Below, in pieces: positions 38,211-39,414 of a DNA stretch of 64,000 bases (its first letter is position 1; every line of letters begins with the position of its first letter). This DNA is from a virus. The notes under the pieces are model-generated. The model made no database searches and was not told the origin of the DNA. It saw only the letters and a list, made by a program, of their open reading frames with translations. The DNA is taken from positions 27,136 through 91,135 of the IMG/VR virus record IMGVR_UViG_3300027861_000017; one strand, 5' to 3'. The position numbers and the translations under genes are program-made.

Positions 38211-38352
38211 TTGATTATACGATATGTTAAATATTAAACTGAATAATGCAGATGTCGTACCACTAGACCACTAAGCCATATGTGTTTATTGGAGGCTTAG
38301 GAAGGATTCGGACCTTCGTCTTCCGCAATTAGTAATTTAATCGCACAATCAA
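38211..38352 (-). ncRNA. Circularly permuted tRNA mimic, YrlA/Y-RNA-like
   Basis: T-arm and 3' acceptor strand + CCA precede the 5' acceptor strand and D-arm; the anticodon stem continues into a long terminal helix. Confidence 0.8.
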
Positions 38353-38369
38353 AATTTAAACTAAAACTG

Positions 38370-38475
38370 TTGGTGTAATAAACTAAAGCTTAATCTTGAA
38401 TCTTATTGTGTTCATATTGCCATTTACCCTAAATGGTAGACAATACATAACACATTGACTATGAAACTGCACCAA
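38370..38475 (-). ncRNA. Structured RNA domain with AGnTTn hexamer repeats
   Basis: TTGGTG/CACCAA closing stem, nested TGTGTT-ATGTATTG and CCATTTA/TAAATGG stems, unpaired AGATTC-A-AGATTA-AGCTTT-AGTTTA. Confidence 0.6.
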
Positions 38476-38478
38476 ACT

Positions 38479-39231
38479 TTATTCAGAGAATAGATATCCA
38501 AATATATCTCTACCCACTTCTTTCCTAGTAACCTCTACAGAGTTTGCCTTCTGTCTAGCCTTCTTACATCCCATTATCATGTCGTTTAATCTCTGGATCA
38601 ATTTACGCTTCCCATTAGGACTCATACTTGAAAACCATTCCACTTTAGTATATGCGCCTACGTTTTCCTGCTCTGACCACTTCTCTATCTGCGCTGGATG
38701 TTCTTTTGTGGCATCGTATAGGACTTTATGTTTAATCCTGTTTGCTGTCTTAAATGTCCTTTCTGGATCTCTTGTTTTAAAGATATTGTCTGCGACATCC
38801 TCATCTAAAACGTAATCACGTCCAGGTGGTAATGTTGGTATAGTGTCAAGTGCGTTCTTTAGCACCTTCAATCTACTTTCCATCCCAAGAAGAAAGGTTG
38901 CTGGTAGATCTTTAGATATAGTTTCCCCATTTACAATAAGATCTGCTTTTGCCATCTGATTTGTGGACTCCTTGGCCAACATAACATCGAAATACCTAGA
39001 AGAATGATCCGACACACTCTTAAGTATTTCATCTACAACATATGTTACCTGCTGTGTTTCTGGTGGATAATGTGTACCATCATCACCATCAAACATCTCC
39101 AATTCTCTTTTGAAGCCATGAAAGAATGCTGGAGTACTGAATTTAGTCTTAGCATCATGCATAGCATCCTTTGCTCTAGCCTCAAGATCCCCCTCTACTG
39201 CTAGAATTTCATGAAGTTTTGTTTCACCCAT
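38479..39231 (-). CDS. Conserved alpha-helical phage protein (resembles DUF7873-type family, unverified)
   Basis: KLHEILAVE, ADLIVNG...LPATFLL..E, VLYDATKEHPAQIE, KKARQKAN motifs. Confidence 0.7.
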   Translation of the reverse strand: MGETKLHEILAVEGDLEARAKDAMHDAKTKFSTPAFFHGFKRELEMFDGDDGTHYPPETQQVTYVVDEILKSVSDHSSRYFDVMLAKESTNQMAKADLIVNGETISKDLPATFLLGMESRLKVLKNALDTIPTLPPGRDYVLDEDVADNIFKTRDPERTFKTANRIKHKVLYDATKEHPAQIEKWSEQENVGAYTKVEWFSSMSPNGKRKLIQRLNDMIMGCKKARQKANSVEVTRKEVGRDIFGYLFSE

Positions 39232-39269
39232 TTTATTTTCCCTCCCTTTTAATATACTTTGTTTTTATT

Positions 39270-39414
39270 TGGTGGATTGCGGCAGAGGACTCACACCTCT
39301 ACACGGCTCATCTACTCATCGGCATCTGTAACTATATCGTCATATAGTTGGGTAGAACCAATTACTACAGTGCGTCGCCTCGTGAATGCGTCTATTTCTT
39401 TCGCCACGCAACCC
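39270..39414 (-). ncRNA. tRNA-like RNA with expanded branched anticodon domain and encoded CCA
   Basis: 8-bp GGGTTGCG/CGCAATCC + ACCA; D-arm GCG-AAAGAAATAGA-CGC; T-arm AGAGG-TGTGAGT-CCTCT. Confidence 0.7.

What the first reader, a model, noticed from the sequence alone, without database searches (positions are those of the whole stretch)
38211..39414. Candidate ribonucleoprotein system: helical protein flanked by tRNA mimics and a hexamer-repeat RNA
Seen: the 250-aa gene is preceded by a CCA-ending tRNA mimic. It is followed, starting about 3 nt after its stop, by a nested-stem RNA whose unpaired segments are AGnTTn-like hexamers (AGATTC-A-AGATTA-AGCTTT-AGTTTA; AGTTTT-AGTTTA-AATTTT), then the permuted tRNA mimic and the atypical tRNA. 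Inference: periodic single-stranded hexamers suit an oligomeric (ring or filament) RNA-binding protein, so the protein may coat its own downstream RNA with a tRNA-like effector head. The protein-plus-repeat-RNA layout is reminiscent of type III toxin-antitoxin or Ro/Y RNPs, but I cannot match it to a characterised system.
Basis: partly seen in the sequence, partly recalled or inferred. Interest (0 to 1): 0.82.

Follow-up and report, generated by a model that had tools for sequence, protein, structure and literature searches.

The report
DUF7873 gene with tRNA-mimic RNA
A phage gene of unknown function (DUF7873) is followed by a folded RNA of about 370 bases, made of six-base repeats, a back-to-front tRNA look-alike of the Y-RNA type and a closing hairpin; the same gene-RNA pair follows nearly every relative of the gene in phages and bacteria, mostly without Ro60, so it probably marks an undescribed RNA-protein particle.

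Summary
The 250-aa gene (38479-39231, minus strand) is Pfam DUF7873. It is followed by: (i) a stem enclosing six-base AGNNUN repeats; (ii) a circularly permuted tRNA-like domain closed by a long stem, which is a sub-threshold relative of Rfam YrlA; (iii) a tRNA; (iv) a conserved hairpin.

A covariance model built here finds the permuted domain just downstream, on the same strand, in 75 of 83 phage loci and 79 of 80 bacterial or archaeal loci. All 21 modelled pairs covary.

No protein neighbour is conserved. Ro60/TROVE is absent from this phage and from 33 of 38 other DUF7873 phage records. Where Ro60 is present, it has its own second YrlA beside it. The Ro60 recognition motif is missing from the DUF7873-type RNA.

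The protein has no known fold. It is predicted to form a symmetric dimer, not a ring or filament. The upstream "tRNA mimic" is not conserved with the gene.

Best reading: a Ro60-independent Y-RNA-like particle. The gene-RNA coupling is shown; binding is inferred. This scan has already found the same pair on other DNA many times. I found no paper that mentions DUF7873.

The parts
38479..39231 (-). DUF7873 protein gene (250 aa). Predicted alpha+beta fold, predicted symmetric homodimer.
   Evidence: Pfam PF25283, E 3e-70. AF2 model mean pLDDT 93. No match in PDB or BFVD. Dimer model ipSAE 0.68 against best control 0.01. 2,464 clusters at 50% identity, all about 250 aa and stand-alone among the best 150.
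38370..38475 (-). Hexamer-repeat domain. Closing stem P0 (38475-38470 with 38375-38370) encloses AGNNUN repeats on both sides of an inserted hairpin (38452-38407). In bacterial relatives a first permuted tRNA-like head sits where this hairpin is.
   Evidence: Sequence and fold. Period-6 statistics. P0 sequences differ between loci but stay complementary, seen by eye. Anabaena layout; second heads.
38351..38369 (-). Three further hexamers after P0 (AGTTTT AGTTTA AATTTT). They correspond to the conserved CAGYUUYAG motif that leads into the long stem.
38211..38352 (-). Y-RNA-like stem carrying a circularly permuted tRNA-like domain. Outer helix 38352-38340 with 38223-38211. P3 38326-38321 with 38251-38246. 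T arm 38317-38301. 3' acceptor strand 38300-38294 plus UCCA 38293-38290. Linker 38289-38278. 5' acceptor strand 38277-38271. D arm 38268-38253.
   Evidence: Model R1 scores 84.6 bits, E 1e-26, the only strong hit in the window. Covariation. Relatives match Rfam YrlA below threshold. Constrained folds. In a swap test the two flanks of a locus pair better with each other than with flanks of other loci: -25.6 against -18.1 kcal/mol.
38135..38208 (-). tRNA with anticodon UGA, a 5-nt variable loop and a C1:A72 mismatch. It occupies a slot that holds a tRNA of any anticodon in about a quarter of the phage relatives and no tRNA in the one bacterial relative read (Anabaena).
   Evidence: ARAGORN and Rfam tRNA 65.3 bits. 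Slot conservation. Suppressor-type UUA anticodon in the same slot in L040 and in Klebsiella phage FBKp24. No tRNA there in Anabaena.
38104..38130 (-). Terminal hairpin (GUGGCC..GGCCAC) with loop AUAAGGAUAAU. Its stem covaries and its loop is conserved as RRGGNUAK. No U tract follows.
   Evidence: No terminator-like site in 37900-39600.
39262..39414 (-). Upstream expanded tRNA-like element: 8-bp acceptor stem with G3:U70, A73-CCA, a T-like arm with loop UGUGAGU, and about 85 nt where the anticodon arm should be. It belongs to this phage's set of odd tRNA-like RNAs and is not a conserved part of the DUF7873 module.
   Evidence: Sequence. Fold z -1.8. Negative with ARAGORN and Rfam. Only 13 of 84 loci have an upstream tRNA or tRNA-like element. 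A weak promoter-like site lies at 39447-39419.

Best explanation
The DUF7873 gene and the roughly 370-nt RNA after it (38475-38104) form one two-part module. It is a Ro60-independent relative of the bacterial Ro60/Y-RNA (YrlA) particle.

Proposed mechanism, with each step marked:
1. The RNA is made with, or just after, the gene's mRNA. No terminator lies between them (shown).
2. The RNA folds into three parts (shown by covariation and conservation): a loop of single-stranded six-base repeats closed by stem P0; a long stem with conserved internal loops that ends in a tRNA-shaped head with T arm, 7-bp acceptor stem, encoded CCA and D arm but no anticodon loop; and a terminal hairpin with a conserved loop.
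3. The head is probably opened by RNase P 5' of G38277, leaving a CCA 3' end at 38290, as happens to M. smegmatis YrlA. The flanking tRNA's own processing would set the 3' boundary (inferred).
4. A DUF7873 homodimer docks on the RNA, most plausibly on the two hexamer tracts or on the conserved internal loops (5' AGUARUUGG; 3' UAUUAGCNUGARA). The tRNA-like head recruits, or acts as a decoy for, tRNA-handling host proteins (inferred).

The biological role is not determined. Likely areas are RNA or tRNA surveillance, repair, or a phage-host conflict over tRNAs.
For: Gene-RNA linkage:
- Model R1 finds the permuted tRNA-like core at 50 bits or more, on the same strand and usually within about 900 nt downstream of the gene (one at about 1.5 kb), in 75 of 83 IMG/VR and cultured-phage loci. 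Three of the 8 misses are contig ends.
- It also matches (27-97 bits, E <= 1e-5) just downstream, on the gene's strand, in 79 of 80 bacterial or archaeal genome loci. These include Glycomyces, Streptomyces, Nostocaceae, Planctomycetota and Armatimonadota, where the neighbours checked in two of them (Anabaena, Glycomyces) are unrelated housekeeping genes.
- In 39 whole phage genomes the best hit lies beside DUF7873 wherever its place was checked. Every hit above 71 bits is the one beside DUF7873.
- No protein neighbour is conserved. The commonest is a RecA-like gene in 11 of 84 loci.

Structure:
- 94% of cells paired against 61% in shuffles; 495 cells with changes on both sides against 143; sliding the partners drops pairing to 34-50%.
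- Six-base periodicity in phages and bacteria.
- CCA is encoded at the acceptor end in 50 of 81 loci under a strict pattern, and the CCA columns are nearly invariant.

Independence from Ro60:
- No TROVE gene in this phage. TROVE is present in 5 of 38 other DUF7873 phage records and in 1 of 19 that are at least 90% complete.
- It is absent or megabases away in 5 bacterial genomes.
- In all 5 TROVE phages a second, lower-scoring YrlA-type hit lies directly beside TROVE, separate from the one beside DUF7873.
- The Ro60 recognition motif GNCGAAN0-1G occurs in 4 of 59 loci against 1.9 expected by chance.

Self-association: the model supports binding but does not show it. Score 0.68, best of 3 controls 0.01. 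This mark was reached by 20 of 30 proteins solved as pairs of one chain and by 1 of 23 solved as single chains; these counts hold only roughly because my own alignment was used. The runs agree in at least 96% of contacts, and the partner's pLDDT is at least 85.

Precedent for processing: M. smegmatis YrlA, which has a 7-bp acceptor stem, is cut by RNase P and receives CCA (Chen et al. 2014, PMC4201824).
Against: - There is no binding, transcript or processing datum.
- The protein has no recognisable RNA-binding domain or known fold and is slightly acidic (pI 6.0).
- Adjacency could reflect shared transcription only.
- R1 also detects Ro60-type YrlA and tandem tRNAs in bacterial genomes. I therefore could not show that the RNA never occurs without DUF7873.
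- At the stricter filters used in that whole-genome run, only 9 of 14 intact cyanobacterial genes had an adjacent hit.
- An earlier in-scan check (e1-2703945) priced the binding claim at 22 in 100.
Confidence: 0.55

Rival explanations
1. The RNA is a free-standing Y-like or tRNA-like non-coding RNA that works with host factors such as host Ro60/Rsr, PNPase, RNase P or tRNA enzymes. DUF7873 is co-expressed and acts in the same pathway, for example as an enzyme or regulator, without being a stable partner of the RNA.
For: - The RNA is a YrlA-class relative.
- When a phage carries TROVE, it lies within about 7 kb of DUF7873 in 4 of 5 cases.
- RtcB is present in 9 of 39 of these phages, including this one.
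- DUF7873 has invariant residues outside the predicted dimer interface (H7, E13, H178, K223, R226) that could equally form an active site.
- The protein is not basic.
Against: - The Ro60 motif is absent from the DUF7873-type RNA.
- Ro60-bearing phages keep a separate YrlA beside Ro60.
- The linkage holds, with varied neighbours where I looked, across phyla and in phages. Such strict linkage is unusual for mere pathway partners.
Confidence: 0.2
2. The structured region is a cis-acting 3' untranslated region of the DUF7873 mRNA. In this reading the tRNA-like fold and terminal hairpin protect the message from 3' exonucleases or direct its processing by RNase P, and the hexamers are sites through which the protein feeds back on its own message.
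For: - The RNA starts 3 nt after the stop codon with no terminator between.
- It is always on the same strand and immediately downstream.
- tRNA-like 3' ends are known stabilisers (established knowledge).
Against: - About 370 nt with three conserved domains, conserved internal-loop sequences, an encoded CCA and, in bacteria, two tRNA-like heads is far more than stabilisation needs.
- RNase P cleavage would detach most of the RNA from the message.
- A promoter is annotated between gene and RNA in Klebsiella phage FBKp24.
Confidence: 0.12
3. The pair is a type III-like toxin-antitoxin or abortive-infection pair, in which the RNA neutralises a harmful DUF7873 protein.
For: - It is a self-contained two-part unit with a patchy spread: 16 of 101 sampled cyanobacterial genomes.
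- It occurs in phages and in chromosomes amid unrelated genes.
Against: - There are no tandem repeats of about 36 nt, and the RNA follows the gene instead of preceding it.
- The protein matches no toxin or defence family.
- All 26 Glycomyces genomes among the loci fetched carry the gene, which looks like vertical inheritance.
- Lytic phages carry it among replication genes and tRNAs.
Confidence: 0.06
4. The hexamer tracts are not single-stranded docking sites. They are the two strands of one long, regularly mismatched stem, as proposed in an earlier in-scan report (e1-5958788). Alternatively, the whole region is only decayed tRNA genes in a phage tRNA cluster.
For: - AGNNUN tracts lie on both sides of the insert, and G-U wobble pairing between them is formally possible.
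- The gene often sits in tRNA clusters.
Against: - In this window the minimum-energy fold leaves the 5' tract unpaired, and the two tracts have little complementarity (by inspection).
- Decay cannot explain the covariation, the fixed order of the parts or their conservation from phages to several bacterial phyla.
Confidence: 0.05

Closest known systems
YrlA-class bacterial and phage Y RNAs with Ro60/Rsr (Rfam RF02553; Chen et al. 2014, PMC4201824)
   Same: - The tRNA-like domain is in permuted order (T arm, acceptor stem-loop, D arm) and mounted on a long stem formed by the RNA's two ends.
- It is encoded beside its presumed protein partner on the same strand, often with a tRNA in the same unit.
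- Relatives of the window RNA match RF02553 over its full length.
   Different: - Scores are below the family threshold: 27-49 bits against 69, and the window copy has no match at E <= 1.
- The partner gene is DUF7873, not TROVE.
- The Ro60 motif GNCGAAN0-1G is lacking.
- Added parts: a hexamer-repeat domain, other conserved internal loops and a terminal hairpin with a conserved loop.
- CCA is usually genome-encoded.
- Ro60 phages carry both RNA types side by side.
M. smegmatis YrlA/YrlB (Chen et al. 2014, PMC4201824)
   Same: - A 7-bp acceptor stem, which that paper links to RNase P cleavage, followed by a CCA end. This gives a two-piece RNA.
- Two tRNA-related RNAs are processed from one precursor, like the two heads seen in bacterial DUF7873 loci.
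   Different: - There the CA of the CCA tail is added after cleavage, and the RNAs were shown bound to Rsr.
- Here CCA is encoded, and neither processing nor binding has been tested.
Two-piece (circularly permuted) tmRNA
   Same: The gene order is T arm, then 3' acceptor strand with CCA, then an intervening segment, then the 5' acceptor strand. The intervening segment is expected to be cut out.
   Different: - No G3:U70 in the permuted head (C3-G70 in the window).
- No tag reading frame and no pseudoknots.
- ARAGORN tmRNA mode is negative.
- Rfam tmRNA models give only 14-21 bits against thresholds of 47-84.
TRAP bound to (G/U)AG repeats in the B. subtilis trp leader (from my own knowledge)
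   Same: NAG triplets separated by short pyrimidine-rich spacers, repeated many times in a single strand. This fits evenly spaced contacts with repeated protein surfaces.
   Different: - TRAP is an 11-mer ring of small beta-sheet subunits.
- DUF7873 has another fold and is predicted to be a dimer.
- The period here is strictly six.
Type III toxin-antitoxin systems (ToxIN)
   Same: A protein gene tightly linked to a repetitive non-coding RNA, found in phages and bacteria.
   Different: - ToxI consists of tandem 36-nt repeats that lie upstream of the toxin gene.
- Here there are degenerate 6-nt repeats downstream, not detected by TRF, together with a tRNA mimic.
- There is no ToxN-like match.

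Membership tests
Pfam DUF7873 (PF25283) | Profile match above the curated cut-off over the whole domain | tested here: met
   237 bits against a cut-off of 27; residues 4-248 match profile positions 2-242 of 244.
YrlA / Y RNA-like (Rfam RF02553) | Covariance-model score at or above the gathering score (69 bits) | tested here: not met
   The window has no YrlA match at E <= 1. Ten of 10 phage relatives score 26.5-48.7 bits, and bacterial relatives score 27-43 bits.
YrlA / Y RNA-like (Rfam RF02553) | tRNA-like domain in the order T arm, acceptor stem-loop, D arm, on a stem formed by the 5' and 3' parts of the RNA | tested here: met
   All 21 pairs covary; the T arm, acceptor and D helices are 99-100% paired and P3 is 77% paired.
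YrlA / Y RNA-like (Rfam RF02553) | GNCGAAN0-1G motif (presumed Ro60 contact) in the 5' part of the RNA | tested here: not met
   Found in 4 of 59 loci against 1.9 expected from shuffles. The window's single match overlaps the T stem.
YrlA / Y RNA-like (Rfam RF02553) | Encoded within about 4 kb of a Ro60/TROVE gene on the same strand | tested here: not met
   No TROVE gene in this phage, whose record is 81% complete. TROVE is present in 5 of 38 other DUF7873 phage records. In 5 bacterial genomes it is absent or megabases away.
YrlA / Y RNA-like (Rfam RF02553) | Bound by Ro60/Rsr in cells | not testable with these tools
   This needs immunoprecipitation.
Two-piece tmRNA | Alanine identity (G3:U70), a tag reading frame, pseudoknots, and detection by ARAGORN or the Rfam tmRNA models | tested here: not met
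   The acceptor stem is GGCUUAG/CUAAGCC, which has C3-G70. ARAGORN is negative. Rfam tmRNA models give 14-21 bits in relatives.
Type III toxin-antitoxin (ToxIN-like) | Tandem direct repeats of about 36 nt upstream of a ToxN-family endoribonuclease gene | tested here: not met
   TRF finds no array in 38000-39500. The protein matches only DUF7873 and nothing in PADLOC.
Canonical tRNA (element 38208-38135) | Cloverleaf scoring above the Rfam tRNA threshold, with identity elements that agree with the anticodon | tested here: inconclusive
   The cloverleaf scores 65.3 bits against a threshold of 29. However, the UGA (Ser) anticodon comes without the long variable arm of tRNA-Ser (alignment). Charging cannot be tested here.

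The most novel reading that the evidence does not exclude
DUF7873 and its RNA form a second, Ro60-independent class of tRNA-mimic particle.

In this reading the RNA is deliberately split at the acceptor loop. RNase P would do this in most relatives. In one Promethearchaeota-MAG relative, a twister-like self-cleaving core sits in the linker instead. The cut exposes a genuine CCA end that the translation or tRNA-surveillance machinery treats like a tRNA end. The particle would then act as a two-piece decoy or sensor for tRNA-targeting nucleases or tRNA quality control. The hexamer rails would hold the DUF7873 dimer.
Probability: 0.12. Interest if true: 0.92.

Novelty: new variant of a known kind. 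Interest (0 to 1): 0.76.

Why it matters
Ro60 is the only protein known to partner tRNA-like Y RNAs. Here a different protein family, of unknown fold and function, is locked to a related but distinct RNA from phages to at least six bacterial phyla. The family is large: 2,464 clusters at 50% identity.

If the pair is a particle, it would be a second lineage of tRNA-mimic RNPs. It would also give a function to a large DUF, and it could explain a recurrent unannotated gap in cultured phage genomes such as Gordonia phage Ronaldo, Rhizobium phage RHph_Y65 and Klebsiella phage FBKp24.

The idea is directly testable in tractable hosts (Anabaena/Nostoc, Streptomyces). It bears on how phages and cells handle tRNA damage and tRNA-directed defence.

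Tried and rejected
Protein searches that gave nothing informative:
- Foldseek against PDB and BFVD. VIA-align wide search: best Z 9.0, generic helical bundles only.
- PDB sequence profile search: 0 hits.
- PHROGs, PADLOC and NCBIfam (one match at noise level).
- ESM Atlas returned only DUF7873 clusters.

Other searches without result:
- A single-sequence search of viral contigs found no relatives. The alignment-based search was needed.
- Nucleotide search against phages hit only the tRNA.

Tests that were weak or uninformative:
- The phyletic co-occurrence test in 101 cyanobacterial genomes was uninformative. R1 also picks up Ro60-type YrlA and tandem tRNAs at 36-60 bits: 75 of 101 genomes matched, against 16 of 101 carrying the gene.
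- The duplex swap test for the outer stem gave only a moderate signal: the cognate partner ranked best in 9 of 59 loci.
- My script to locate P0 automatically picked wrong anchors in many loci. P0 covariation therefore rests on inspection.

Ideas checked and dropped:
- RtcB linkage: present in 9 of 39 phages, including this one at G000:C1:23188-24204, but not near DUF7873.
- Upstream element as an intron-bearing tRNA or a tmRNA: ARAGORN negative.
- Twister-like cores in 10 other loci with long linkers: none found.

Literature:
- No paper mentions DUF7873.
- Burroughs and Aravind 2016 (PMC5062991), named by an earlier in-scan check as nearest in print, and Sim et al. 2020 (PMC10870794) are not held. 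Their content could not be checked.
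Full report
**What is in the window.**
The window is part of a 91-kb IMG/VR phage record that is 81% complete. Genes in this region run on the minus strand. ORF 39231..38479 (250 aa) matches Pfam DUF7873 at 237 bits. It matches nothing in PHROGs, PADLOC or NCBIfam.

Its neighbours are small unknown ORFs and, upstream at 41647-42024, an SSB gene. 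No terminator-like site lies in 37900-39600.

Read 5' to 3' after the stop codon, the RNA has these parts:
- Stem P0 starts 3 nt after the stop (38475-38470 pairing with 38375-38370).
- P0 encloses AGNNUN hexamers on both sides of a 46-nt hairpin.
- Three more hexamers follow (38368-38351).
- A 13-bp outer helix (38352-38340 with 38223-38211) and a 6-bp helix P3 carry a back-to-front tRNA-like domain. Its order is T arm, 3' acceptor strand plus UCCA, a 12-nt linker, 5' acceptor strand, D arm.
- Then comes a tRNA with anticodon UGA (38208-38135).
- Last is a hairpin with loop AUAAGGAUAAU (38130-38104).

**Is it more than chance?**
I fetched 80 IMG/VR loci that encode relatives of the protein at 35-47% identity, and three cultured phages.

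- A strict pattern for the permuted domain (T arm, 7-bp acceptor stem, encoded NCCA) hit 50 of 81 loci. Almost all hits lay 112-250 nt after the stop, and only four (one of them upstream of the gene) lay elsewhere in about 0.5 Mb of flanks. A relaxed pattern hit 65 of 84 loci.
- A covariance model of P3, T arm, acceptor and D arm (R1) scores the window copy at 84.6 bits, with nothing else above 27.5 bits in 64 kb.
- R1 finds a hit of 50 bits or more downstream on the gene's strand in 75 of 83 phage loci. Three of the misses are contig ends.
- On 70 distinct sequences, 94% of cells are paired against 61% in shuffles. All 21 pairs show changes on both sides. Sliding the partners lowers pairing to 34-50%. 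That alignment was fitted to the model and so leans towards the structure. However, RNAalifold on a plain MAFFT alignment recovered the T arm, acceptor and D arm independently.
- The hexamers are periodic across the family. In phages z is 10.8 at distance 6 and 5.2 at distance 12, and an AG-AG spacing of 6 occurs 115 times against 16 expected. In bacterial loci z is 18.7.
- The terminal hairpin recurs with a covarying stem and a loop of RRGGNUAK.

**What it resembles.**
Rfam has no match in the window apart from tRNAs. In 10 of 10 related phage loci, though, the permuted domain matches YrlA (RF02553, Y RNA-like) over the full model at 26.5-48.7 bits, below the 69-bit threshold. Bacterial relatives do the same.

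YrlA RNAs are defined by their place beside Ro60/TROVE genes and by a GNCGAAN0-1G motif. M. smegmatis YrlA, which has a 7-bp acceptor stem, is cut by RNase P and gains CCA (PMC4201824).

**Independence from Ro60.**
- TROVE is absent from this phage.
- It is present in only 5 of 38 other DUF7873 phage records, and in 1 of 19 that are at least 90% complete.
- In each of those five, a second, lower-scoring YrlA-type hit lies right beside TROVE, while the higher-scoring one lies beside DUF7873. The jumbo phage G020 even has a TROVE-YrlA-RtcB cluster about 200 kb away from its DUF7873 module.
- The Ro60 motif is at chance level in the DUF7873-type RNAs: 4 of 59 loci against 1.9 expected.
- In five bacterial genomes that carry the module, TROVE is absent (3 genomes) or megabases away (2 genomes).

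**Breadth.**
The protein family has 2,464 clusters at 50% identity. The best 150 are all about 250 aa and stand-alone.

228 cellular genomes encode it. In 79 of the 80 loci fetched, R1 matches (27-97 bits, E <= 1e-5) lie just after the gene, often as two tandem heads. These genomes include Glycomyces (all 26 Glycomyces genomes among the loci fetched), Actinomadura, Streptomyces, Nostocaceae, Planctomycetota, Armatimonadota and Chloroflexota. In the two read (Anabaena, Glycomyces) the neighbours are unrelated housekeeping genes.

In Anabaena the first head sits inside the hexamer loop, where this window has a plain hairpin, and there is no tRNA before the terminal hairpin. So the window carries a one-headed phage variant of a family-wide design. 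Among the phage loci no protein neighbour is conserved.

**The protein.**
AlphaFold2 gives a confident alpha+beta model (pLDDT 93). It has no informative structural relative.

The two-copy prediction supports self-association but does not show it:
- Score 0.68, best of 3 controls 0.01.
- This mark was reached by 20 of 30 proteins solved as pairs of one chain and by 1 of 23 solved as single chains. The counts hold only roughly, because my own alignment was used.
- The runs agree in at least 96% of contacts, and the partner's pLDDT is at least 85.

The same residues touch on both copies, so the interface is closed and two-fold symmetric. The protein is slightly acidic (pI 6.0).

**The upstream element.**
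The element at 39414-39262 has an 8-bp acceptor stem with G3:U70 and an ACCA tail, but no program recognises it. Only 13 of 84 relatives have any tRNA or tRNA-like element within 330 nt upstream. It is not part of the conserved module.

**Reading.**
Shown:
- a gene-RNA pair conserved from phages to several bacterial phyla;
- its secondary structure;
- its independence from Ro60.

Inferred:
- that DUF7873, as a dimer, binds this RNA;
- that the head is opened by RNase P to expose the encoded CCA;
- that the tRNA-shaped head engages tRNA-handling factors.

The rival readings are: a co-expressed but unbound pathway partner; a cis-acting 3' UTR; a toxin-antitoxin pair; and hexamers that form a mismatched stem. 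They are weighed in their own sections.

**Earlier work in this scan, and the literature.**
This scan has reported the same DUF7873-RNA pair on other DNA many times. One earlier check priced the binding claim at 22 in 100 and named Burroughs and Aravind 2016 as the nearest in print. That paper is not held, so I could not check it. My model-based counts show that the pairing is the rule. I found no paper that mentions DUF7873.

Noticed in passing
L087:3439-3488 (Promethearchaeota MAG contig WJMJ01000145.1): In this relative, the 54-nt linker between the CCA end and the 5' acceptor strand matches the conserved core of the type-P1 twister self-cleaving ribozyme. The score is 34.7 bits against a threshold of 67.2, with E 5.7e-6 in a 401-nt search, and one hairpin of the model is missing. 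A ribozyme placed exactly there would cut the head open after CCA. None was seen in 10 other loci with long linkers.
   Followed up: partly
window 39262-39414 (-): An expanded tRNA-like element with alanine-type marks (G3:U70, A73, CCA), a T-like arm with loop UGUGAGU, and about 85 nt in place of the anticodon arm. ARAGORN and Rfam do not recognise it, and it is not conserved next to DUF7873 elsewhere. A weak promoter-like site lies just upstream at 39447-39419.
   Followed up: partly
window 38135-38208 (-), and the same slot in L040, L085 and others: The tRNA that follows the Y-like RNA carries almost any anticodon in different phages. Examples include UUA (suppressor type) in L040 and in Klebsiella phage FBKp24, where it is annotated tRNA-Sup-TTA, as well as several odd loops that ARAGORN cannot name. 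The window's copy has a Ser anticodon (UGA) without the long variable arm.
   Followed up: partly
G020:C1:328245-334154 (jumbo phage behind L054): A canonical-looking cluster of a TROVE (Ro60) gene, three or four YrlA-type hits and RtcB sits in the same genome, about 200 kb from its DUF7873 module.
   Followed up: partly
G000:C1:23188-24204 (own phage, outside the window): This phage encodes an RtcB RNA ligase (E 2.5e-67) about 41 kb from the DUF7873 module.
   Followed up: no
L080:6285-6673: A full-length tmRNA (102 bits) lies 2.5 kb downstream of the DUF7873 module in a 183-kb phage.
   Followed up: no
window 38104-38130 (-), and the same place in relatives: The terminal hairpin's loop (AAGGAUA; family consensus RRGGNUAK) looks like a Shine-Dalgarno sequence or a CsrA-type GGA hairpin. 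In the window it lies just upstream of the next gene's ribosome-binding site at about 38093-38088.
   Followed up: no
G121:C102:109101-109403 and G102:C57:15476-15610 (cyanobacterial genomes): Two sampled cyanobacteria carry only N-terminal fragments of DUF7873 (profile positions 1-101 and 1-45). These are probably decayed copies.
   Followed up: no
None of them is a copy of the DUF7873-type RNA.
   Followed up: no
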